Below are positions 1-55,571 of a stretch of DNA of 55,571 bases, in pieces. The DNA is taken from the sequence record OR791690.1. One strand, 5' to 3'. The stretch is from Escherichia phage vB_EcoM_JL1. Every line of letters starts with the position of its first letter. Position 1 is the stretch's first letter. The position numbers and the translations under genes were made by a program. The notes below the pieces were generated by a model. That model saw only the letters and a list, made by a program, of their open reading frames with translations, made no database searches and was not told the origin of the DNA.

Positions 1-324
1 GACTTCTTCTCTTCTTTCGAATTCTGATTGAAAGAAAGAAGCATGTCCAAAAGTTCCAATATTACAAAGTTATCTCCCGGCTTGTGGGTGGGCCTTTATA
101 ATAGGAGATGGAGCAATATTGTTGCAATTGAACATGCTTTAGTTGAAGAACAGTTTCGAATGGTAATCCTACTTCACACATGGTTGTTGGAACTTTGTCC
201 GGCCAAAGACAGGGAGTTCAATGATTGCCACATCATTACAACACTGTATGTTTAGTTGACATGCTGAAATGTTTCTAGAATGATTTCAACATGACATGCG
301 GAATACTTCTCCGTATTCTGTTAC

Positions 325-344
325 TTCACATCCAACTAATGTTA
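325..344 (-). promoter_or_regulatory. Phage-promoter-like conserved motif (copy P1)
   Basis: plus ttcacatccaactaatgtta; minus-strand consensus AACATTAGTTGGATTTGAAG shared by about 12 sites. Confidence 0.4.
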
Positions 345-416
345 CAGGTGGCTACAATATTGAAGCCAGCTCTAAGATTAATTGAAACAAGAAAAGGGAG
401 CCGAAGCTCCCAAATA

Positions 417-617
417 TCAGAACGGTATCTCTGTATCGAAATAACCAGAATTGTGCAAATATGCATGCAGTAATACATGCGACTCTTGTTTATATTCTGC
501 TAACAACTCTAAGAAGTCTTTAGTCTCCTCCACTGTAGGACGAGATAAGTTGCTCATGTCACAGGTGTGATGAGGGTTGAAACAGTTTTCGATTTGATTG
601 ATTTGCATGGTATTCAT
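417..617 (-). CDS. Small hypothetical protein (66 aa) ending in SSB-tip-like DTEIPF
   Basis: minus-strand ORF downstream of RNAP gene; C-terminus ...GYFDTEIPF resembles the E. coli SSB tip DDDIPF. Confidence 0.5.
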   Translation of the reverse strand: MNTMQINQIENCFNPHHTCDMSNLSRPTVEETKDFLELLAEYKQESHVLLHAYLHNSGYFDTEIPF

Positions 618-665
618 TATAAGTCTCCAAGTTTGTGGTCATCCTTGACCAATTAGTGTTACTGA

Positions 666-2780
666 TTATTGACAGAAGTAGTAAGCGTGTTCGCTCATCA
701 GAAGCTCTTCAGTTACGATGTTCTCATGATACATCTTGATGCCACCAAGTTGCTTAGACAGATTCTCGAATTGATTGTTGGTTACAAAGATTTCAACATA
801 TGCTGCACGAATAACTTCCATCATACGTGGAGCATCTGCCAAACAGCAACGGAAACAATCATGGATTGAAGTGAAGCCACGAAGACCAGCTTCTTTAGCT
901 TTAACTGCAACAGTACGAGCAACAAGTGCATCAATGCCCTGAATGTAGTTAACAACGAAAGTACGCTTGAATTCTTCTTTAGTTGGATTGGATTCACGAA
1001 TGGTCCAAGGCTTATTCTCCTGAATCTGACCAAAGATAACACGAGTTTGGGAGTCAACACGAATGCTGAATGCCTCACAGATTTCACGAGATGGGAAGCA
1101 AGGCTTCATTACAACCTGACCATCAGTGTGACGATATGTGATGTACTCTTTACCAAGTTCAACACAACGGTTGTATGCAGCATCAGCAGCTTTCTCAATG
1201 AACATGTTAATCTTAGCACCCAATGCGTTATGGATTGCTTCCACACACAGTTCAGCAAATGCCTCAGCTTTCTCCATAGGAATCTGGAGTGCTTCTGTCA
1301 TGTAGCTGATGAAGTCAGAAGAACCAGTCAATGCAGCTTTACCACCACCGTATTGGATAGCCATGTACGGAGTTTTGATAAACTTACGACCAGCTTTCGG
1401 ATTCAAGAATTCATCCATGATTTCAGGAGATGGTTTCATTGAAGACTTGTCCAGCAGCTTCAACAGTTCACGAAGACTCAACTGGTATGGGTCAGATGCT
1501 TTAGTCTCAGAATCAACCAGACCTGTTGCACGAGCCATTTCCATATTACCAGCAATGAATGCCAGATATTGAGTACCAGAACATTTAGCATCTAAGCCAA
1601 AGCCTACACGAGAATCACATTCACCTGTAGTCTCGAACTTGAACCAATCCAGAGCCAGACGAACATAAGTGAATGGCTTGGAAGGACGTTCAGCTTTAGG
1701 CATGTTCATCATGCGAGCAAGTGAACCAGCTGGATTCTGAGCAACATAAGTTAAACGCTTAGCACTGCACCATTCACCACCAGAAATATCTTCCAGCTCT
1801 GCCATAAACATGTTGTATGCAATGGTAGTAGAACCATCTTCGTTAAACTTCTTAACGATGTTCTCAACATTGTGAGAATACAAGCAACGAGCAAAGTCAG
1901 ATGATTGTGGGTTAGGACCAGCACATGCTACATGATACAGACGACCACGGTTATCAGCAAAGTAGTCAGAATACAGTGTGTCCTGATTCATCATTGCTAC
2001 AGCATTGTTCCAAACATGGAGTTCAGTCTGGATTGCTTCTGGCATCTGCAAGCCACCATAGGTACGTTGTTCAAGCATGGACTGAATGATGCGAACCATC
2101 TCAGTCTCCACATGGTACTCAGTATCTTGCAGGAATTCGATTGCAGCTTTCAGAGTTTTGGATGGCTTAACTTTGCCACCTTTAACGAAAGGCTTGCGAC
2201 GAGATTCAGATGTAACACGCTCAGTGAATGGCACTGCGGTATCTTTGGTTGTAACCAGCTCAACCCATGTGTCAGTTTGTTGGAACGACTTATCTTCGTT
2301 CATGGTGATGAAGCCAAAGTGCTTAGCCAGGCCAATGAGGTTGATAGCTGGGTCAACATAGTGCATTGCTTTCAAATCATTGTTGTAACGGTTGGCATCA
2401 GCAATTGAAGCAGAAGCCAGCTCAACCATTGCAATTGCAGGAACAACATCATCACGAGTGAATGAGGTCATCATCTTAAAGATTGCAAGAGCAGCAATAG
2501 CACAGGTCTGAGGTTGCATGTAGTTCTGTTTCTCTTTGGCACGATATACCAGAGCAGTGATAGCAGGGACAACGGATTTGATAGTTTGAGTTGAGATAGT
2601 TGCCATTTTGCGAGTCTCCAATTTAGTTTCGGTTTTAGTTTCGGATTGTGTAGCGGAGGTGATTTCATCTACCATCTGGTTGCAACGGTCCATCGTATCG
2701 AGCACGTCTTTCCAACCGTGGCCTTCTTCTTTTAAGCGAGCACCATCAGCAGCCAGTGTACGATATTCTTCATTAGTCAT
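666..2780 (-). CDS. T7-like single-subunit DNA-dependent RNA polymerase (704 aa, compact)
   Basis: motifs DAKCSGTQYLAF (T7 DGSCSGIQHFSA), KTPYMAIQYGGG, SIHDCF (T7 HDSFGT); ATG at 2780 with GGAGA RBS. Confidence 0.85.
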   Translation of the reverse strand: MTNEEYRTLAADGARLKEEGHGWKDVLDTMDRCNQMVDEITSATQSETKTETKLETRKMATISTQTIKSVVPAITALVYRAKEKQNYMQPQTCAIAALAIFKMMTSFTRDDVVPAIAMVELASASIADANRYNNDLKAMHYVDPAINLIGLAKHFGFITMNEDKSFQQTDTWVELVTTKDTAVPFTERVTSESRRKPFVKGGKVKPSKTLKAAIEFLQDTEYHVETEMVRIIQSMLEQRTYGGLQMPEAIQTELHVWNNAVAMMNQDTLYSDYFADNRGRLYHVACAGPNPQSSDFARCLYSHNVENIVKKFNEDGSTTIAYNMFMAELEDISGGEWCSAKRLTYVAQNPAGSLARMMNMPKAERPSKPFTYVRLALDWFKFETTGECDSRVGFGLDAKCSGTQYLAFIAGNMEMARATGLVDSETKASDPYQLSLRELLKLLDKSSMKPSPEIMDEFLNPKAGRKFIKTPYMAIQYGGGKAALTGSSDFISYMTEALQIPMEKAEAFAELCVEAIHNALGAKINMFIEKAADAAYNRCVELGKEYITYRHTDGQVVMKPCFPSREICEAFSIRVDSQTRVIFGQIQENKPWTIRESNPTKEEFKRTFVVNYIQGIDALVARTVAVKAKEAGLRGFTSIHDCFRCCLADAPRMMEVIRAAYVEIFVTNNQFENLSKQLGGIKMYHENIVTEELLMSEHAYYFCQ

Positions 2781-2842
2781 GATAAAGTCTCCAATTGATT
2801 ATGATTTAACTGAAACGGATTAGACTTGCGTAGCCTATTCAT

Positions 2843-2862
2843 AATCACAACCAACTAATGGT
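2843..2862 (-). promoter_or_regulatory. Phage-promoter-like conserved motif (copy P2), 63 nt upstream of RNAP start
   Basis: plus aatcacaaccaactaatggt. Confidence 0.4.
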
Positions 2863-2995
2863 GAGGTGAGCACACTACAACAGCGTACTCTGATTGCCTT
2901 TGACCTTGACTTATAAGCGAAGCGCCTAACTTGGTGTTGTTTGAAAGCCGATAGGCTGTAGGAAAAAGTTGGAGTAGGGACCGTATTTAAGTCCG

Positions 2996-5446: not shown

Positions 5447-6487
5447 TTAAGCCACCCGTTTCCAGAAGGCGTAATAGTGTGAAGAGTTGCGCACATTGAG
5501 TGCGGTCCCGCCACCAGTTGAGGTTGTTTCGTTATTGCTGGGGCCACCAGTGGTCAGAGCCGTGCCACCAGTGCTGCCTGCACTAGAGCCTCCACTTGTA
5601 CCTGTGTAGTTTGGCAAGTCCACTGTGTGGGTGTGAGCGCCGGAGGAGTTGGCAGTCCCACTTACGTGATGGGTGTGAGCACCAGCACCACCAGTGTTTG
5701 TGGACCATGCTTCTATATCGTTTCGACCTGAGCGGAGCGGTATGACGCCACCTTGATTACCACCGTTAACCGACGGCACAGAGTGAGTGTGGTTGCCATT
5801 GCTCTCGGCAGTGCCCGATAAGGAGTGAGTATGCGCACCACTGGAACTTGATGTAACTGCTGGGTGGTCGTGGTTGATGGTGTGGGTGTGAGCCATCGTG
5901 TGCGAGTGGGCTGCAATACCGTGAGTGTGGTTTTGCATTCCGTGCGTGTGACCTGGCAGGTTGGCTACAGCAATGGTGGCTGTATCTGACCCAGCTACTG
6001 AACCAATCTGACCATCAGCCGTCCCAGCTTCTGGGCCAGTTGCAGCACGGGCAGCGCGACCATCGGTAATTTGTTCCCACACAGTTCCTGGGAACGAGTT
6101 GTTCGGGTTTGTGGCATCATCAAACTGCAATACAATACCGATTGGGTATATAGTATTAAATATGTTTGAGGCATCTATTTGAAGCTTCCACGGACCCCAG
6201 TCCACAGTTGGGGACTCCTTCGTGCGAACATATAGTCTGGCAAAGTTGTATGTAGTGTATCTCTGAATGCTTAGCCCTGTTGATGTCCAGGGCATTACCT
6301 CAAGCACACCAGCAACCTTTTCTGGAATGTTCAGCAATGTGGTGGCTATATTATTGGCAGCAACCATGTATATGCCAGACTTTTCCACACCGTAGAAGTC
6401 ATTAAAGTCCAGCCCACTGGTTAGGGATTCGGCATATCTCGACCACTTCTCCTTAACCAACGCATCTAAAGAATAACCTTTAGCCAT
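5447..6487 (-). CDS. Tail fibre protein with HxH repeats and Gly/Ser/Thr-rich C-terminus
   Basis: repeated GHTHG / AHTHT / NHTHS motifs resembling metal-binding HxH repeats of phage fibre tips; follows other fibre genes. Confidence 0.65.
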   Translation of the reverse strand: MAKGYSLDALVKEKWSRYAESLTSGLDFNDFYGVEKSGIYMVAANNIATTLLNIPEKVAGVLEVMPWTSTGLSIQRYTTYNFARLYVRTKESPTVDWGPWKLQIDASNIFNTIYPIGIVLQFDDATNPNNSFPGTVWEQITDGRAARAATGPEAGTADGQIGSVAGSDTATIAVANLPGHTHGMQNHTHGIAAHSHTMAHTHTINHDHPAVTSSSSGAHTHSLSGTAESNGNHTHSVPSVNGGNQGGVIPLRSGRNDIEAWSTNTGGAGAHTHHVSGTANSSGAHTHTVDLPNYTGTSGGSSAGSTGGTALTTGGPSNNETTSTGGGTALNVRNSSHYYAFWKRVA

Positions 6488-10804: not shown

Positions 10805-11151
10805 GTTAAGAATTCCGTAATGTCGCCATAGTCAGACAAGGCAGTAAAGGAGATTCCAAGTTTTCTATCTCGGTAGTCTGCATCAATATCTATGGATATT
10901 AGTTGCTGAACACCAGCAGTTCCTCGGATAATATTGGCTATTGCTGCCTCAATATCCGAAGGACGAACTTGCTTGGTAAAGATTGCTTCGAACCACGGTA
11001 AGCCCAACGAATTGTCGAGCTTCCATTCGCCGAATATTGTCAGCAATCTGCATTTAACCAATTGAGCGACTTGAGCAGCACCTGAAATACGAGTTGTTCC
11101 CCGACCAATGATAATGTCGTGGTTTGAATCAAGAGCTAAATTTCCAGCCAT
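10780..11151 (-). CDS. Baseplate protein (gp25/W or Mu gp46-like)
   Basis: 123 aa; position between spike and J-like genes. Confidence 0.4.
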   Translation of the reverse strand: MAGNLALDSNHDIIIGRGTTRISGAAQVAQLVKCRLLTIFGEWKLDNSLGLPWFEAIFTKQVRPSDIEAAIANIIRGTAGVQQLISIDIDADYRDRKLGISFTALSDYGDITEFLTWQQSNTA

Positions 11152-11966
11152 TATTTCATCGGCCCAACATCGCCGCCTTCTGGGTTAGTGTGAGTGTGGC
11201 CATCAACCTTAATACCATTAAGAGTGAGGGAACCAGTTTGAACCATGTTACCATCCATCTTAAAGTTGCCAGTGAACGTTGCAGTGGAGCCATCTTTAGT
11301 CCCAGATACAGCCATGCCGCCCATCACTGTTAAGGATTTTGTAACGGTCGTGTCGCCATCCAATGTAATCTGCGGCGCTTTAACTGTAGCTTGCGACGTA
11401 ACTTCAACAAGAATCTCCGAATCTTTTGTGATTTGAATCTTCGCAGCGCCAGTAATGATTTCAATTAAACCGTCACCGTGCAGTGTCAGTCTTTGGCTTC
11501 TGTCTGCATTACGCAGTTCTGCTACTCCACCATTAAATCCTGGAATAACTTTGGTCAAAGGTTGAGTCCCGATAGTGCATACAGCAGCATTGTGGGAAAA
11601 CAATTGGCTAAATTCTGGAGCAGGTCGCCCATTTACTAAGCCAGCACTACTCTTGTTCTGTGAAAGCCAATGGTCTATTCCTCGCTGTGAGAAATGGACA
11701 TAGCATGGGGTTCCATCTGGAACTGGATGAGTTAAACTCCAGCCGCCACCCTGAATAAACTGAACAGGAACACCCTGCAACCGTTGTTTTGGATGCAAGG
11801 TATAGGCTTCGGCATAACCCACGAACAAGTTTTCGATTGCAAGCTGGACTTCGCAAGTCTGTGTTACGGCATCGAAATTGTAGATGTGTCCTGGATAACT
11901 TGTGTTAATGTCAGGAGCATTTTGGTTATTGTTATGACTAGCCACGTTCGAGTACACTCTCGTCAA
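11151..11966 (-). CDS. Baseplate central spike (P2 gpV / Mu gp45-like)
   Basis: C-terminal apex motif VDGHTHTNPEGGDVGP typical of spike tips. Confidence 0.55.
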   Translation of the reverse strand: MTRVYSNVASHNNNQNAPDINTSYPGHIYNFDAVTQTCEVQLAIENLFVGYAEAYTLHPKQRLQGVPVQFIQGGGWSLTHPVPDGTPCYVHFSQRGIDHWLSQNKSSAGLVNGRPAPEFSQLFSHNAAVCTIGTQPLTKVIPGFNGGVAELRNADRSQRLTLHGDGLIEIITGAAKIQITKDSEILVEVTSQATVKAPQITLDGDTTVTKSLTVMGGMAVSGTKDGSTATFTGNFKMDGNMVQTGSLTLNGIKVDGHTHTNPEGGDVGPMK

Positions 11967-29110: not shown

Positions 29111-29296
29111 TTAATCACAATCCACTAATGGTTGAGTTTGCACGGGATTGATGCGAATGATGCTGCCTAAACCAGAATCGGCCTTTAAATACAGGCGGTT
29201 TAGTGGCATATATGAATCACAGATAGGACATTGCTGCGTTATGAAATCATCTTCTGCAATTTCATAGTGGCAGTTAGGACATTGTATTGTGCGCAT
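29111..29296 (-). CDS. Zinc-ribbon protein (61 aa)
   Basis: CPNC ... CPIC pairs. Confidence 0.45.
   Translation of the reverse strand: MRTIQCPNCHYEIAEDDFITQQCPICDSYMPLNRLYLKADSGLGSIIRINPVQTQPLVDCD
29113..29132 (-). promoter_or_regulatory. Phage-promoter-like conserved motif (copy P3), ~22 nt upstream of terminase ATG
   Basis: plus aatcacaatccactaatggt; overlaps 3' end of upstream small ORF. Confidence 0.4.
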
Positions 29297-29681: not shown

Positions 29682-29699
29682 TTCAGATAGGTTCCAGAT

Positions 29700-30296
29700 T
29701 TATTTGTAACGTTCGGCCCCGTGAGTGTGGGCACCAATTTCAACAGTTCCTGGCACAGACACTTTCACACTGCCATCGCCAACAACAGAGATGCTGTGTG
29801 AGTGTGAACCGTCAGGAATATATGGCCTTTCATGCGGTCCAAGTTCCACACGACCAGTTGAGCCAAAGCCACCTTCGCCACGACCAGTTGCATTCAAGCG
29901 GTCAACTTCAACGAAATGGTGTTGAGTAGCTTTACTAACTTGCACCTGACAAATACGTTCACCTGGCTGAACCACAAAGGCTGTGTCCGAGTCGTTGTGC
30001 AGCTTAACCATAAGATTGCCACGATAATCGGAGTCCAGAATTCCTGTGCAATTTGCCAAGCGAATACCAGACTTAAAGCCATGACCAGAACGGCTATGAA
30101 CTTTGAGTTCGTATCCAACTGGAATCTCGAACTGGAGGCCAGTATCGAAAACAGCAGAGCAGCCGGGATTGATAACAACAGTGCTATCGGAGATAGTGCA
30201 AACGTCAGCAGCAGCAGCGCCAGCAGTAGCGTACACAGGTAATTTCGCATTAGGATGCACTCGCTTTACAGCAACAACTTGAGTCATACAAGACAT
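29700..30296 (-). CDS. dut: dUTP diphosphatase with ~45-aa C-terminal extension
   Basis: motifs SRSGHG, GILDSDYRG, GERICQ, GEGGFGSTG; extension carries SHSHS and GAHTHG. Confidence 0.8.
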   Translation of the reverse strand: MSCMTQVVAVKRVHPNAKLPVYATAGAAAADVCTISDSTVVINPGCSAVFDTGLQFEIPVGYELKVHSRSGHGFKSGIRLANCTGILDSDYRGNLMVKLHNDSDTAFVVQPGERICQVQVSKATQHHFVEVDRLNATGRGEGGFGSTGRVELGPHERPYIPDGSHSHSISVVGDGSVKVSVPGTVEIGAHTHGAERYK

Positions 30297-52520: not shown

Positions 52521-52992
52521 AATATTTGTTGCTCAAAATCGGGGCGGCAAACGATATTAAATTCGATGCTTTGTCCGACTTCTTCTCTTCTTTCGAATTC
52601 TGATTGAAAGAAAGAAGCATGTCCAAAAGTTCCAATATTACAAAGTTATCTCCCGGCTTGTGGGTGGGCCTTTATAATAGGAGATGGAGCAATATTGTTG
52701 CAATTGAACATGCTTTAGTTGAAGAACAGTTTCGAATGGTAATCCTACTTCACACATGGTTGTTGGAACTTTGTCCGGCCAAAGACAGGGAGTTCAATGA
52801 TTGCCACATCATTACAACACTGTATGTTTAGTTGACATGCTGAAATGTTTCTAGAATGATTTCAACATGACATGCGGAATACTTCTCCGTATTCTGTTAC
52901 TTCACATCCAACTAATGTTACAGGTGGCTACAATATTGAAGCCAGCTCTAAGATTAATTGAAACAAGAAAAGGGAGCCGAAGCTCCCAAATA

Positions 52993-53193
52993 TCAGAACG
53001 GTATCTCTGTATCGAAATAACCAGAATTGTGCAAATATGCATGCAGTAATACATGCGACTCTTGTTTATATTCTGCTAACAACTCTAAGAAGTCTTTAGT
53101 CTCCTCCACTGTAGGACGAGATAAGTTGCTCATGTCACAGGTGTGATGAGGGTTGAAACAGTTTTCGATTTGATTGATTTGCATGGTATTCAT
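52993..53193 (-). CDS. Copy of 417..617 (small protein ending DTEIPF)
   Basis: sequence identity with 417..617. Confidence 0.5.
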   Translation of the reverse strand: MNTMQINQIENCFNPHHTCDMSNLSRPTVEETKDFLELLAEYKQESHVLLHAYLHNSGYFDTEIPF

Positions 53194-53241
53194 TATAAGT
53201 CTCCAAGTTTGTGGTCATCCTTGACCAATTAGTGTTACTGA

Positions 53242-55356
53242 TTATTGACAGAAGTAGTAAGCGTGTTCGCTCATCAGAAGCTCTTCAGTTACGATGTTCT
53301 CATGATACATCTTGATGCCACCAAGTTGCTTAGACAGATTCTCGAATTGATTGTTGGTTACAAAGATTTCAACATATGCTGCACGAATAACTTCCATCAT
53401 ACGTGGAGCATCTGCCAAACAGCAACGGAAACAATCATGGATTGAAGTGAAGCCACGAAGACCAGCTTCTTTAGCTTTAACTGCAACAGTACGAGCAACA
53501 AGTGCATCAATGCCCTGAATGTAGTTAACAACGAAAGTACGCTTGAATTCTTCTTTAGTTGGATTGGATTCACGAATGGTCCAAGGCTTATTCTCCTGAA
53601 TCTGACCAAAGATAACACGAGTTTGGGAGTCAACACGAATGCTGAATGCCTCACAGATTTCACGAGATGGGAAGCAAGGCTTCATTACAACCTGACCATC
53701 AGTGTGACGATATGTGATGTACTCTTTACCAAGTTCAACACAACGGTTGTATGCAGCATCAGCAGCTTTCTCAATGAACATGTTAATCTTAGCACCCAAT
53801 GCGTTATGGATTGCTTCCACACACAGTTCAGCAAATGCCTCAGCTTTCTCCATAGGAATCTGGAGTGCTTCTGTCATGTAGCTGATGAAGTCAGAAGAAC
53901 CAGTCAATGCAGCTTTACCACCACCGTATTGGATAGCCATGTACGGAGTTTTGATAAACTTACGACCAGCTTTCGGATTCAAGAATTCATCCATGATTTC
54001 AGGAGATGGTTTCATTGAAGACTTGTCCAGCAGCTTCAACAGTTCACGAAGACTCAACTGGTATGGGTCAGATGCTTTAGTCTCAGAATCAACCAGACCT
54101 GTTGCACGAGCCATTTCCATATTACCAGCAATGAATGCCAGATATTGAGTACCAGAACATTTAGCATCTAAGCCAAAGCCTACACGAGAATCACATTCAC
54201 CTGTAGTCTCGAACTTGAACCAATCCAGAGCCAGACGAACATAAGTGAATGGCTTGGAAGGACGTTCAGCTTTAGGCATGTTCATCATGCGAGCAAGTGA
54301 ACCAGCTGGATTCTGAGCAACATAAGTTAAACGCTTAGCACTGCACCATTCACCACCAGAAATATCTTCCAGCTCTGCCATAAACATGTTGTATGCAATG
54401 GTAGTAGAACCATCTTCGTTAAACTTCTTAACGATGTTCTCAACATTGTGAGAATACAAGCAACGAGCAAAGTCAGATGATTGTGGGTTAGGACCAGCAC
54501 ATGCTACATGATACAGACGACCACGGTTATCAGCAAAGTAGTCAGAATACAGTGTGTCCTGATTCATCATTGCTACAGCATTGTTCCAAACATGGAGTTC
54601 AGTCTGGATTGCTTCTGGCATCTGCAAGCCACCATAGGTACGTTGTTCAAGCATGGACTGAATGATGCGAACCATCTCAGTCTCCACATGGTACTCAGTA
54701 TCTTGCAGGAATTCGATTGCAGCTTTCAGAGTTTTGGATGGCTTAACTTTGCCACCTTTAACGAAAGGCTTGCGACGAGATTCAGATGTAACACGCTCAG
54801 TGAATGGCACTGCGGTATCTTTGGTTGTAACCAGCTCAACCCATGTGTCAGTTTGTTGGAACGACTTATCTTCGTTCATGGTGATGAAGCCAAAGTGCTT
54901 AGCCAGGCCAATGAGGTTGATAGCTGGGTCAACATAGTGCATTGCTTTCAAATCATTGTTGTAACGGTTGGCATCAGCAATTGAAGCAGAAGCCAGCTCA
55001 ACCATTGCAATTGCAGGAACAACATCATCACGAGTGAATGAGGTCATCATCTTAAAGATTGCAAGAGCAGCAATAGCACAGGTCTGAGGTTGCATGTAGT
55101 TCTGTTTCTCTTTGGCACGATATACCAGAGCAGTGATAGCAGGGACAACGGATTTGATAGTTTGAGTTGAGATAGTTGCCATTTTGCGAGTCTCCAATTT
55201 AGTTTCGGTTTTAGTTTCGGATTGTGTAGCGGAGGTGATTTCATCTACCATCTGGTTGCAACGGTCCATCGTATCGAGCACGTCTTTCCAACCGTGGCCT
55301 TCTTCTTTTAAGCGAGCACCATCAGCAGCCAGTGTACGATATTCTTCATTAGTCAT
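53242..55356 (-). CDS. Copy of T7-like single-subunit RNA polymerase gene
   Basis: identical to 666..2780. Confidence 0.85.
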   Translation of the reverse strand: MTNEEYRTLAADGARLKEEGHGWKDVLDTMDRCNQMVDEITSATQSETKTETKLETRKMATISTQTIKSVVPAITALVYRAKEKQNYMQPQTCAIAALAIFKMMTSFTRDDVVPAIAMVELASASIADANRYNNDLKAMHYVDPAINLIGLAKHFGFITMNEDKSFQQTDTWVELVTTKDTAVPFTERVTSESRRKPFVKGGKVKPSKTLKAAIEFLQDTEYHVETEMVRIIQSMLEQRTYGGLQMPEAIQTELHVWNNAVAMMNQDTLYSDYFADNRGRLYHVACAGPNPQSSDFARCLYSHNVENIVKKFNEDGSTTIAYNMFMAELEDISGGEWCSAKRLTYVAQNPAGSLARMMNMPKAERPSKPFTYVRLALDWFKFETTGECDSRVGFGLDAKCSGTQYLAFIAGNMEMARATGLVDSETKASDPYQLSLRELLKLLDKSSMKPSPEIMDEFLNPKAGRKFIKTPYMAIQYGGGKAALTGSSDFISYMTEALQIPMEKAEAFAELCVEAIHNALGAKINMFIEKAADAAYNRCVELGKEYITYRHTDGQVVMKPCFPSREICEAFSIRVDSQTRVIFGQIQENKPWTIRESNPTKEEFKRTFVVNYIQGIDALVARTVAVKAKEAGLRGFTSIHDCFRCCLADAPRMMEVIRAAYVEIFVTNNQFENLSKQLGGIKMYHENIVTEELLMSEHAYYFCQ

Positions 55357-55571
55357 GATAAAGTCTCCAATTGATTATGATTTAACTGAAACGGATTAGA
55401 CTTGCGTAGCCTATTCATAATCACAACCAACTAATGGTGAGGTGAGCACACTACAACAGCGTACTCTGATTGCCTTTGACCTTGACTTATAAGCGAAGCG
55501 CCTAACTTGGTGTTGTTTGAAAGCCGATAGGCTGTAGGAAAAAGTTGGAGTAGGGACCGTATTTAAGTCCG

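What the first reader, a model, noticed from the sequence alone, without database searches (positions are those of the whole stretch)
29700..30296. dUTPase with a ~45-aa C-terminal extension bearing HxH motifs like those in the tail spike and fibre
All five dUTPase motifs are present and are followed by ...PHERPYIPDGSHSHSISVVGDGSVKVSVPGTVEIGAHTHGAERYK (about 29703..29849). The SHSHS and GAHTHG elements resemble the metal-binding HxH repeats in the spike apex (11151..11966) and fibre (5447..6487). dUTPases are trimers, so the extension could form a trimeric metal site or an extra function.
Basis: partly seen in the sequence, partly recalled or inferred. Interest (0 to 1): 0.5.

Follow-up and report, generated by a model that had tools for sequence, protein, structure and literature searches.

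The report
dUTPase with fibre-like histidine tail
This phage's dUTPase, an enzyme that keeps uracil out of DNA, carries a real and selected but dispensable 50-residue tail built from the same His-x-His units that bind iron in phage tail fibres; close relatives swap, shorten or lose it, and its purpose is unknown.

Summary
ORF 29700..30296 (- strand, 198 aa) is a complete trimeric-type dUTPase, with all five motifs in residues 1-148. It is followed by a 50-residue tail carrying GSHSHS and GAHTHG.

The window is a phiEcoM-GJ1-like phage (Chaseviridae), apparently vB_EcoM_JL1.

- **Translated and selected:** tail pN/pS is 0.05-0.13, and indels keep the reading frame.
- **Not conserved as a unit:** within one genus the tail ranges from 0 to 61 residues. 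It is a mosaic of interchangeable modules, and its length is scattered over the core tree.
- **What recurs is the motif G-[S/A]-H-x-H-[S/G]-hydrophobic:** 40 HxH were observed against 10 +/- 3 in shuffles, and 24 of 30 tails carry it. There are none in the cores, and none in tails of dUTPases outside this clade.
- **Link to fibres:** the same unit fills the phage's own fibre, which is homologous to the iron-binding T4 gp37 tip. The tail-to-fibre similarity is motif-level only; Pfam Phage_fiber scores 18.2 bits against a cut-off of 20.
- **Structure:** monomeric AlphaFold gives no confident tail structure, and it fails on the genuine fibre HxH region too.

Best reading (about 0.4): an accessory, recombining cassette that forms a metal-stapled trimeric stalk on the dUTPase three-fold axis. 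Metal binding, geometry and purpose are untested. This is a new variant of a known kind, of moderate interest.

The parts
29700..30296 (-). dUTPase gene (198 aa plus TAA stop at 29700-29702)
   Evidence: ORF list and sequence. Pfam PF00692 E 1.7e-22. PHROG 135 dUTPase E 8.5e-63. Annotated as dUTPase in 95-98% identical phages.
29853..30296 (-). Catalytic core, residues 1-148, trimeric dUTPase fold
   Evidence: AlphaFold pLDDT is about 85-96 over most of the core. Foldseek against PDB dUTPases gives target-normalised TM 0.85-0.91, E 5e-14. phmmer against the PDB: best hit 8hrv, E 6.7e-29.
30201..30227 (-). Motif I (residues 24-32, AGAAAADVC)
   Evidence: Read from the sequence. A28 and D31 are invariant in 51 homologues.
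30078..30098 (-). Motif II (residues 67-73, HSRSGHG)
   Evidence: R69, S70, G71, H72 and G73 are invariant.
30018..30044 (-). Motif III (residues 85-93, GILDSDYRG), with catalytic Asp90
   Evidence: G85, D88, D90, Y91 and G93 are invariant.
29946..29963 (-). Motif IV (residues 112-117, GERICQ)
   Evidence: R114 and Q117 are invariant.
29853..29882 (-). Motif V (residues 139-148, RGEGGFGSTG), the mobile C-terminal arm
   Evidence: R139, G143, G145, S146 and G148 are invariant. Most dUTPases stop 0-2 residues after this motif.
29703..29852 (-). C-terminal tail, residues 149-198: RVELGPHERPYIPDGSHSHSISVVGDGSVKVSVPGTVEIGAHTHGAERYK
   Evidence: Present with the same architecture in GJ1 and BSBP01. 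Mosaic variants occur in SA91KD, FXie, SKA49, ST32, DE15 and Pel53. pN/pS 0.05-0.13. AlphaFold monomer pLDDT 33-41.
29823..29840 (-). Degenerate unit 0 (residues 153-158, GPHERP)
   Evidence: It occupies the position of the single intact HxH of short-tail relatives (ELGSHNHP and ELGSHTHS). It aligns with HDHP of the fibre and GAHTHT of T4 gp37. This reading is an inference.
29793..29810 (-). HxH unit 1 (residues 163-168, GSHSHS), followed by ISVV
   Evidence: H165 and H167 are at least 90% conserved in an alignment of 21 tails, although those tails were chosen mostly for having HxH. Best stretch of the sub-threshold Pfam Phage_fiber match.
29718..29735 (-). HxH unit 2 (residues 188-193, GAHTHG), within the conserved C-terminus G[AS]H[TD]HGAxRYK
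   Evidence: Retained in relatives down to 58% core identity (P0022 GAHDHGANRYK, P0040 GSHDHGAHFYK).
5627..5950 (-). Comparator, not part of the gene: HxH-repeat region of the tail fibre (residues 180-287 of ORF 5447..6487)
   Evidence: Nine HxH, all invariant in 51 homologues. Homologous to the T4 gp37 tip 2XGF, E 1.2e-8.
11190..11198 (-). Comparator: the single HTH near the C-terminus of the spike ORF 11151..11966
   Evidence: No profile similarity to the tail.

Best explanation
The gene encodes a catalytically complete homotrimeric dUTPase carrying a non-catalytic C-terminal appendage. The appendage is made of tail-fibre-type units, G-x-H-x-H-(S/T)-hydrophobic. In this phage there is one degenerate unit and two intact ones. 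Between the intact units lie short strand-turn-strand segments (SISVV-GDG-SVKVSV-PG-TVEI).

A C3 trimer holds its three C-termini close together and in register. The three copies of each HxH therefore most likely meet on or near the three-fold axis and chelate a metal ion with six histidines, as in T4 gp37. That would give a short metal-stapled beta-stalk linking the three motif V arms.

The appendage is an accessory cassette. Recombination among Chaseviridae phages exchanges, shortens or deletes it, so it is not needed for dUTP hydrolysis itself. Its likely role is to stabilise or tether the trimer and its arms, or to present a second, lineage-specific function.

Shown: dUTPase identity; that the tail is real, translated and under selection; HxH enrichment; mosaicism; restriction to this clade.
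Inferred: metal binding, trimeric geometry and role.
For: 1. The core is an intact dUTPase by motifs, Pfam score and fold. The family is homotrimeric (established knowledge; PMC12524310).
2. The tail is coding. pN/pS is 0.13 for GJ1 against BSBP01 and 0.05 for SA91KD against FXie. Length variants are in frame.
3. HxH is what selection keeps. There are 40 HxH against 10.2 +/- 3.0 expected, and 24 of 30 tails of at least 10 aa carry it. Both histidines of unit 1 are at least 90% conserved while neighbouring residues vary.
4. The flanking pattern is Gly at -2 in 21 of 30 contexts, Ser/Ala at -1, and a non-polar residue (Ile/Ala/Met/Val) at +4 in 24 of 30. This matches the fibre's units such as GAHTHSLS and GNHTHSVP. 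That fibre is homologous to the iron-binding T4 gp37 tip (HxH-iron coordination summarised in PMC11705849).
5. Weak direct similarity exists. Pfam Phage_fiber gives E 0.0024 and hits 5 of 21 tails. hhalign against the fibre gives E 1.9e-4. BLASTP against a gp37 segment gives 41% identity over 37 aa, E 0.006.
6. Alternative middle modules (GDGSVKVSVPGTVEI and GEGTTAFVSGTTSI) keep the same strand-turn-strand pattern with different residues. The tail is rich in Val, Ile and Gly, unlike typical disordered linkers.
7. One distant variant (P0041) adds cysteines next to its histidines, which is typical of metal sites.
Against: - No metal or oligomer data exist.
- AlphaFold (monomer) gives pLDDT 33-41 and no secondary structure for the tail. 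This is somewhat lower than the 39-64 it gives the genuine fibre HxH region.
- Similarity to fibre repeats is below Pfam's threshold. phmmer and profile searches of the PDB find nothing.
- Tails carry 0-4 HxH, and some have none (flopper, phiA050, P0037, P0039).
- Short-tail relatives place HxH only 6-10 residues after motif V (4HA13, P0035, P0038, Faunus). From general knowledge of dUTPase structures, that looks too short to reach the axis while the arm is closed over a peripheral active site. I could not measure this here.
- Many natural relatives lack the tail entirely, so any benefit is conditional.
Confidence: 0.4

Rival explanations
1. Hypervariable partner-binding (moonlighting) module. 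The tail is an interaction surface for a host, satellite or phage protein and diversifies in an arms race. This would be analogous to the variable motif VI of staphylococcal phage dUTPases that binds the SaPI repressor Stl. HxH would be only the scaffold or incidental. This is compatible with the structural reading above and differs in what is selected.
For: - Tail length and module type vary from 0 to 61 aa within one genus and do not follow the core tree.
- Synonymous divergence is higher in the tail than in the core: 0.26 against 0.09, and 0.45 against 0.19. This suggests older alleles moved by recombination.
- The dUTPase 3' end borders an indel hot spot that in relatives holds a T7 gp5.9-like RecBCD-inhibitor gene.
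- Accessory segments with second functions are known in other dUTPases (PMC12524310).
Against: - No partner is known and no homology to any interaction domain was found.
- Within a given tail type, selection is purifying rather than diversifying.
- This reading does not explain why HxH in particular recurs.
Confidence: 0.25
2. Per-subunit metal site next to the active site. Each HxH acts locally just after motif V, binding a metal or the nucleotide-metal complex. It would modulate arm closure or catalysis without any trimeric stalk.
For: The minimal tails place HxH only 6-10 residues after motif V (TTELGSHNH, TGALGSHTH, TKQIDVHHH). Motif V closes over the Mg-dUTP site (PMC12524310).
Against: - Long tails put the intact HxH units 16 and 41 residues beyond motif V.
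- The unit nearest motif V is degenerate in this phage (HER).
- Tail-less enzymes with 98% identical cores exist.
- No core residue co-varies convincingly with tail presence; the association test was confounded by phylogeny.
Confidence: 0.12
3. Neutral baggage. The tail is a run-on into a variable intergenic region seeded by recombination with fibre-like DNA. It would be tolerated because the C-terminus is free, with no function of its own.
For: - The tail is absent in many close relatives.
- 2KOFFS shows a 16-aa nonsense read-through into the intergenic spacer.
- AlphaFold finds no structure.
- Other dUTPases tolerate unrelated C-terminal additions (P0080, P0086, L057, L096).
Against: - pN/pS is 0.05-0.13, with many synonymous changes.
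- HxH is enriched about four-fold over shuffles.
- The C-terminal GAHTHGAxRYK is kept down to 58% core identity.
- There is no nucleotide similarity to the fibre gene.
Confidence: 0.08
4. Virion docking. The fibre-like tail lets the dUTPase trimer attach to or co-assemble with baseplate or fibre proteins, so the enzyme travels with the particle.
For: Only the fibre-like motif, and the gene's position three genes upstream of the terminase at the edge of the structural module.
Against: - The searched literature contains no proteomic report of this; the ST32 paper lists the gene only as a replication gene.
- Tail-less relatives make normal virions.
- The tail is far shorter than any fibre attachment domain.
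Confidence: 0.03

Closest known systems
Trimeric (all-beta) dUTPases, e.g. E. coli Dut (1DUP, 1RN8), H. pylori (8HRV), phage T5 (8QKY)
   Same: All five motifs, the Pfam PF00692 match and the fold agree (target-normalised TM 0.85-0.91). The gene sits in a nucleotide-metabolism and replication block (ligase, dNMP kinase).
   Different: Those enzymes end 0-7 residues after motif V. This one continues for 50 residues. No solved dUTPase sequence or structure aligns beyond query residue about 155.
T4 gp37 long-tail-fibre tip (PDB 2XGF) and the Pfam Phage_fiber repeat PF03335: HxH units that coordinate Fe2+ with six histidines from three chains
   Same: The unit consensus is the same (G-x-H-x-H-S/T-hydrophobic), and both occur in a parallel homotrimer. 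The phage's own fibre is a true homologue of gp37 and carries the same unit. Weak tail-to-gp37 and tail-to-fibre alignments exist.
   Different: The tail scores below Pfam's cut-off (18.2 against 20 bits) and has no PDB sequence hit. It has only 1-3 units. It is attached to an enzyme rather than a fibre shaft. Metal binding is untested.
Motif VI of staphylococcal phage trimeric dUTPases (phi11, 80alpha), the variable insert that binds the SaPI repressor Stl
   Same: Both are non-catalytic, lineage-specific segments that vary greatly among closely related phages and are absent from some (PMC12524310).
   Different: The review describes motif VI as a non-conserved central region of the protein. 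The tail here lies after motif V and is made of HxH units. No partner is known.
Other lineage-specific dUTPase additions: the Drosophila 28-residue C-terminal extension, the mycobacterial 5-residue loop next to motif V, and the phage T5 loop 30-35
   Same: These are precedents for extra segments near the C-terminal arm that are unnecessary for catalysis but linked to additional roles (the T5 loop-deletion structure 8QLD appears).
   Different: Different sequences, no histidine motif and no mosaic cassette behaviour.
Spike-tip iron sites of P2 gpV / phi92 gp138-type central spikes
   Same: A single HxH close to the C-terminus of a trimer. The window's spike has DGHTHTNP. That these spike tips bind iron is from my own knowledge, not tested here.
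   Different: No profile similarity between the tail and the spike. In the spike the motif caps a long beta-helix.

Membership tests
Trimeric dUTPase (Pfam PF00692) | Pfam model matched above the gathering score | tested here: met
   80 bits against a cut-off of 22, E 1.7e-22, residues 16-148.
Trimeric dUTPase (Pfam PF00692) | Five conserved motifs, including the motif III Asp and the motif V P-loop-like GFGSTG | tested here: met
   Motifs were read from the sequence. Key residues are invariant in 51 homologues.
Trimeric dUTPase (Pfam PF00692) | Jelly-roll beta fold of the subunit | tested here: met
   AlphaFold core pLDDT about 85-96. Foldseek against PDB dUTPases: E 5e-14, target-normalised TM 0.85-0.91.
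Trimeric dUTPase (Pfam PF00692) | Homotrimer assembly and dUTP hydrolysis | not testable with these tools
   Inferred from family membership only.
Phage tail-fibre HxH repeat (Pfam PF03335 / T4 gp37 type) | Pfam model matched above the gathering score | tested here: not met
   18.2 bits against a cut-off of 20, E 0.0024. Five of 21 tails hit at E <= 1 and none reaches the threshold.
Phage tail-fibre HxH repeat (Pfam PF03335 / T4 gp37 type) | Unit consensus G-x-H-x-H-(S/T)-hydrophobic, repeated | tested here: met
   GSHSHSIS and GAHTHGAE in the window. Across 30 distinct contexts, Gly at -2 occurs in 21 and Ile/Ala/Met/Val at +4 in 24. The fibre has the same pattern.
Phage tail-fibre HxH repeat (Pfam PF03335 / T4 gp37 type) | Detectable homology to a structurally characterised HxH fibre | tested here: inconclusive
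   hhalign against the phage's own gp37-like fibre: probability 47%, E 1.9e-4. BLASTP against a gp37 segment: E 0.006. phmmer and hmmsearch of the PDB: no hit.
Phage tail-fibre HxH repeat (Pfam PF03335 / T4 gp37 type) | Six-histidine metal coordination by three parallel chains | not testable with these tools
   Only monomer prediction was available. It is uninformative, because the genuine fibre HxH region also scores pLDDT 39-64.
Staphylococcal-type dUTPase with motif VI (Stl-binding) | Variable insert lies inside the core (a central region), not after motif V | tested here: not met
   The extra segment lies after motif V. The review places motif VI in a central region of the protein.
Staphylococcal-type dUTPase with motif VI (Stl-binding) | Segment is hypervariable among close relatives and dispensable for catalysis | tested here: inconclusive
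   Hypervariability and natural absence are shown. Catalytic dispensability is inferred from tail-less relatives, not measured.

The most novel reading that the evidence does not exclude
A tail-fibre-type metal-binding HxH cassette works outside the virion, grafted onto a metabolic enzyme and traded between phages as fibre tips are. The swapping would reflect an arms race in which the dUTPase trimer doubles as an effector or as the target of a host or satellite sensor. That would be a Gram-negative counterpart of the staphylococcal Dut-Stl system, with the metal-stapled tail as the specificity determinant.
Probability: 0.12. Interest if true: 0.75.

Novelty: new variant of a known kind. Interest (0 to 1): 0.42.

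Why it matters
HxH units are regarded as a hallmark of phage fibres and spikes. Finding them selected on a cytoplasmic trimeric enzyme would show the unit is a portable trimer staple rather than a fibre-specific device.

The case also adds a Gram-negative phage example to the growing list of dUTPases with lineage-specific, non-catalytic segments. The natural series within one genus (tail-less, one-unit, two- and three-unit enzymes with nearly identical cores) is a ready-made experimental set. It can be used to ask whether tethering the three motif V arms changes catalysis or stability, or creates a second function.

If the tail turns out to be neutral baggage, the finding is only an annotation detail.

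Tried and rejected
- **Word-indexed search with the tail alone:** no candidates, so it was uninformative.
- **Exhaustive phmmer of the tail against 1.84 billion representatives:** only its own cluster, plus large tandem-repeat proteins (Calx-beta, InlB B-repeat and similar). Their scores come from summing weak matches to the VVGDGSVKVSVP stretch, so I rejected them as spurious.
- **tblastn of the tail against 50,697 phage genomes:** only eight records, all from five Carltongylesvirus phages.
- **PDB sequence and profile searches with the tail:** nothing.
- **Recent copy from the phage's own fibre or spike gene:** rejected. The longest shared DNA word with the fibre gene is 12 nt, at chance level.
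- **Monomeric AlphaFold of the whole protein:** low confidence for the tail. A control on the genuine fibre, with an equally deep alignment, also failed on the HxH region. The result is therefore not evidence for disorder.
- **Association between core residues and tail presence:** the top columns simply separate the clade from outgroups, so the test is confounded.
- **Frameshift, sequencing error or fused downstream gene:** rejected. The continuous ORF recurs in more than ten independently sequenced genomes, and the small downstream ORFs in relatives carry no HxH.
- **A regulatory DNA or RNA element under the tail-coding DNA:** no promoter or terminator pattern there. High synonymous divergence argues against nucleotide-level constraint.
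- **Literature:** no paper found linking dUTPase with HxH or describing this extension.

Full report
**What is there.** The ORF at 29700..30296 on the - strand encodes 198 residues. Residues 16-148 match Pfam dUTPase PF00692 (E 1.7e-22, 80 bits against a cut-off of 22) and PHROG 135, dUTPase (E 8.5e-63).

All five motifs of trimeric dUTPases can be read directly:
- I: AGAAAADV
- II: HSRSGHG
- III: GILDSDYRG
- IV: GERICQ
- V: RGEGGFGSTG, ending at residue 148

Their key residues are invariant in 51 homologues. An AlphaFold model has pLDDT about 85-96 over most of the core. It superposes on solved dUTPases with target-normalised TM 0.85-0.91.

After motif V come 50 more residues: RVELGPHERPYIPDGSHSHSISVVGDGSVKVSVPGTVEIGAHTHGAERYK (window 29703..29852). 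No solved dUTPase aligns beyond about residue 155.

**Genomic setting.** The window is 95-98% identical to phiEcoM-GJ1-like myophages (Carltongylesvirus, Chaseviridae). It is apparently the record of Escherichia phage vB_EcoM_JL1: its fibre protein is 100% identical to that phage's, on a contig of exactly 55,571 bp.

All genes here are on the - strand, in this order: DNA ligase, dNMP-kinase-like protein, dUTPase, a 109-aa protein of unknown function, a 61-aa protein with weak zinc-ribbon-like matches, terminase. No promoter or terminator pattern lies inside the tail-coding DNA.

**HxH census.** Among the window's ORFs, HxH is concentrated in three places:
- the fibre 5447..6487, with nine, all invariant in 51 homologues;
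- the spike 11151..11966, with one (DGHTHTNP) near the C-terminus;
- the dUTPase tail, with two.

The fibre's HxH region is homologous to the T4 gp37 receptor-binding tip (PDB 2XGF, E 1.2e-8). In that structure, paired histidines from three chains coordinate iron ions (summarised in PMC11705849).

**Is the tail a real, selected peptide?** Yes. For phage pairs with the same tail architecture:

| Pair | Tail pN/pS | Tail pS | Core pS |
|---|---|---|---|
| GJ1 / BSBP01 | 0.13 | 0.26 | 0.09 |
| SA91KD / FXie | 0.05 | 0.45 | 0.19 |

Many synonymous changes accompany these values. Length variants of 47, 49, 50, 51, 53 and 61 residues all stay in frame.

**Is it conserved?** Not as a unit. Within this one genus, tail lengths are:
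- 2 residues (RV then stop): Mangalitsa, TH25, MLP1, Yersinia phage PYps23T
- 16 residues of read-through nonsense: 2KOFFS
- 21: flopper, with no HxH
- 25: Bp10, with one HxH (VHNHS)
- 47-61: ST32, SA91KD, FXie, the window, GJ1, BSBP01, SKA49, DE15, Pel53

An alignment shows interchangeable modules:
- alternative linkers: LGQHERPHIPDG, or VGQYDPSLIVPSNG, with or without EHGNSRIVPGS;
- a GSHSHS(I/M)SVVG unit;
- alternative middles: DGGVKVSLPGTVEI or EGTTAFVSGTTSI;
- alternative ends: GAHTHGAERYK or GTPTHNPSIGK.

Tail type and length are scattered over a tree built from the core. Synonymous divergence is also higher in the tail than in the core. Together these point to repeated recombination, loss and replacement.

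Among cluster representatives from public data with at least 52% identity, 16 of 46 have fewer than 10 residues after motif V. The other 30 have tails of 14-73 residues. Distant tail-bearing members (P0022, P0040, P0041) sit in the same gene order on phage contigs.

In an independent sample of 55 phage dUTPases from IMG/VR, only the three Chaseviridae entries carry such tails. The other long tails there are unrelated and lack HxH. The feature is therefore specific to this phage clade.

**What recurs is the motif.**
- Tails of the clade hold 40 HxH against 10.2 +/- 3.0 in shuffles that keep each tail's composition (maximum 21 in 2000).
- 24 of 30 tails have at least one.
- The cores (6956 residues) have none.
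- The seven long tails of more distant dUTPases have none.

The consensus is D-G-[S/A]-H-x-H-[S/G]-[I/A/M]-[S/T]. This is the unit seen in the phage's fibre (GAHTHSLS, GNHTHSVP, GAHTHTVD).

In the short-tail relatives a single unit follows motif V after only about 6 residues (TTELGSHNHPLGV, TGALGSHTHSITL). In the window that position reads LGPHERPYI. I interpret this as a degenerate unit.

**How strong is the link to fibres?** It is motif-level only.

| Comparison | Result |
|---|---|
| Pfam Phage_fiber (PF03335), window tail | E 0.0024, 18.2 bits (cut-off 20) |
| Pfam Phage_fiber, 21 tails | 5 hit at E <= 1 |
| Tail profile vs the phage's fibre (hhalign) | probability 47%, E 1.9e-4; pairs HERPYI..GSHSHS..GAHTHG with HDHPAV..GAHTHS..GNHTHS |
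| Tail vs a T4 gp37 segment (BLASTP) | 41% identity over 37 residues, E 0.006, single comparison |
| Tail profile vs the spike (hhalign) | no similarity |
| Tail DNA vs the fibre gene | no shared DNA |
| Tail and tail profile vs the PDB | no hit |
| Tail vs 1.84 billion proteins | own cluster plus spurious tandem-repeat proteins |

**Structure prediction.** Only monomer prediction was available. The tail gets pLDDT 33-41 and no secondary structure.

As a control I modelled the genuine fibre with an equally deep alignment of 51 sequences. Its invariant HxH region also gets only pLDDT 39-64 and almost no structure. The method cannot see trimer-dependent HxH folds, so the tail result does not demonstrate disorder. 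The tail does score somewhat lower than the control.

**Interpretation.** The best-supported account is an accessory cassette of fibre-type HxH units appended to a trimeric enzyme. A C3 trimer presents three identical tails in register. The simplest mechanism is therefore that each HxH triplet chelates one metal ion on the three-fold axis. This would form a short stalk that ties the motif V arms together.

The strand-turn-strand pattern is kept by two unrelated middle modules, and the composition is rich in Val, Ile and Gly. Both fit a folded beta element.

Against this reading:
- there are no direct data;
- the number of HxH is variable and sometimes zero;
- natural variants lack the tail entirely;
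- the 6-residue linkers of the minimal tails probably cannot reach the axis while the arm is closed. This last point rests on general knowledge of dUTPase structures and was not measured here.

I put 0.4 on this reading.

The main rival (0.25) is that the tail is chiefly a fast-evolving partner-binding surface, like motif VI of staphylococcal phage dUTPases. The two readings are compatible. Lesser rivals are a local per-subunit metal site (0.12), neutral baggage (0.08, disfavoured by pN/pS and by the motif enrichment) and virion docking (0.03).

**Comparison with what is known, and novelty.** Full-text searches found no description of this extension, nor of HxH motifs in any dUTPase. The ST32 paper lists the gene only as a replication enzyme.

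The protein is a member of the trimeric dUTPase family. The tail resembles fibre HxH repeats but does not formally qualify as one. I class it as a new variant of a known kind: a dUTPase with a lineage-specific accessory segment. Interest is moderate. It would rise considerably if metal binding or a tail-dependent second function were shown.

Noticed in passing
window 1..2995 and 52577..55571: The first 2,995 bases are 100% identical to the last 2,995. The record therefore carries a terminal duplication, either a true direct terminal repeat or a circular-assembly overlap. As a result the 704-aa ORF appears twice (666..2780 and 53242..55356).
   Followed up: partly
window 29682..29699; compare L006, L008, L009, L016, L017, L020-L022: Many relatives carry a small gene with Pfam Phage_T7_Gp5_9 (RecBCD-inhibitor-like) between the dUTPase and the 109-aa gene. 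FXie has a different 111-aa ORF there. The window has nothing, only an 18-nt spacer. The dUTPase 3' end thus borders an indel hot spot.
   Followed up: partly
window 5447..6487 (-): The tail fibre has nine invariant HxH motifs (residues 180-287). It is homologous to the iron-binding T4 gp37 tip 2XGF (E 1.2e-8) and to the Pfam Gp10_C domain. Its N-terminal 110 residues are confidently modelled, but the rest is not in monomer mode.
   Followed up: partly
L010 (PP952070.1, 'Staphylococcus phage Pel53'): This genome is labelled as a Staphylococcus hyicus phage. It is about 90% identical in DNA to these E. coli Chaseviridae phages and has the longest dUTPase tail (61 aa). The host label looks doubtful.
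   Followed up: no
L011 (Shigella phage vB_Shi_2KOFFS) dUTPase 3' end: A deletion leaves RV + MSVV, then reads out of frame through the intergenic spacer (FDISNRLEPI) to a TGA overlapping the next gene's start. It looks like a tail in the process of being lost.
   Followed up: no
proteins P0080, P0082, P0097; P0086, P0114; loci L057, L096: More distant dUTPases carry unrelated C-terminal additions after motif V. One group has 64-69 aa beginning TAATR..KVGQRVRLSP, and two proteins (one from Burkholderia) have 95 aa. The C-terminus of this enzyme family therefore tolerates fused domains.
   Followed up: no
window 29111..29296 (-): A 61-aa ORF has two CxxC pairs (CPNC...CPIC) and weak zinc-ribbon matches. 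It overlaps the terminase start by 8 nt. A Pel53 annotator called its homologue 'DNA-directed RNA polymerase subunit'.
   Followed up: no
dUTPase tail against core in L001-L004: Synonymous divergence is two- to three-fold higher in the tail than in the adjacent core of the same gene pairs. This suggests the tail modules are older alleles moved by recombination.
   Followed up: partly
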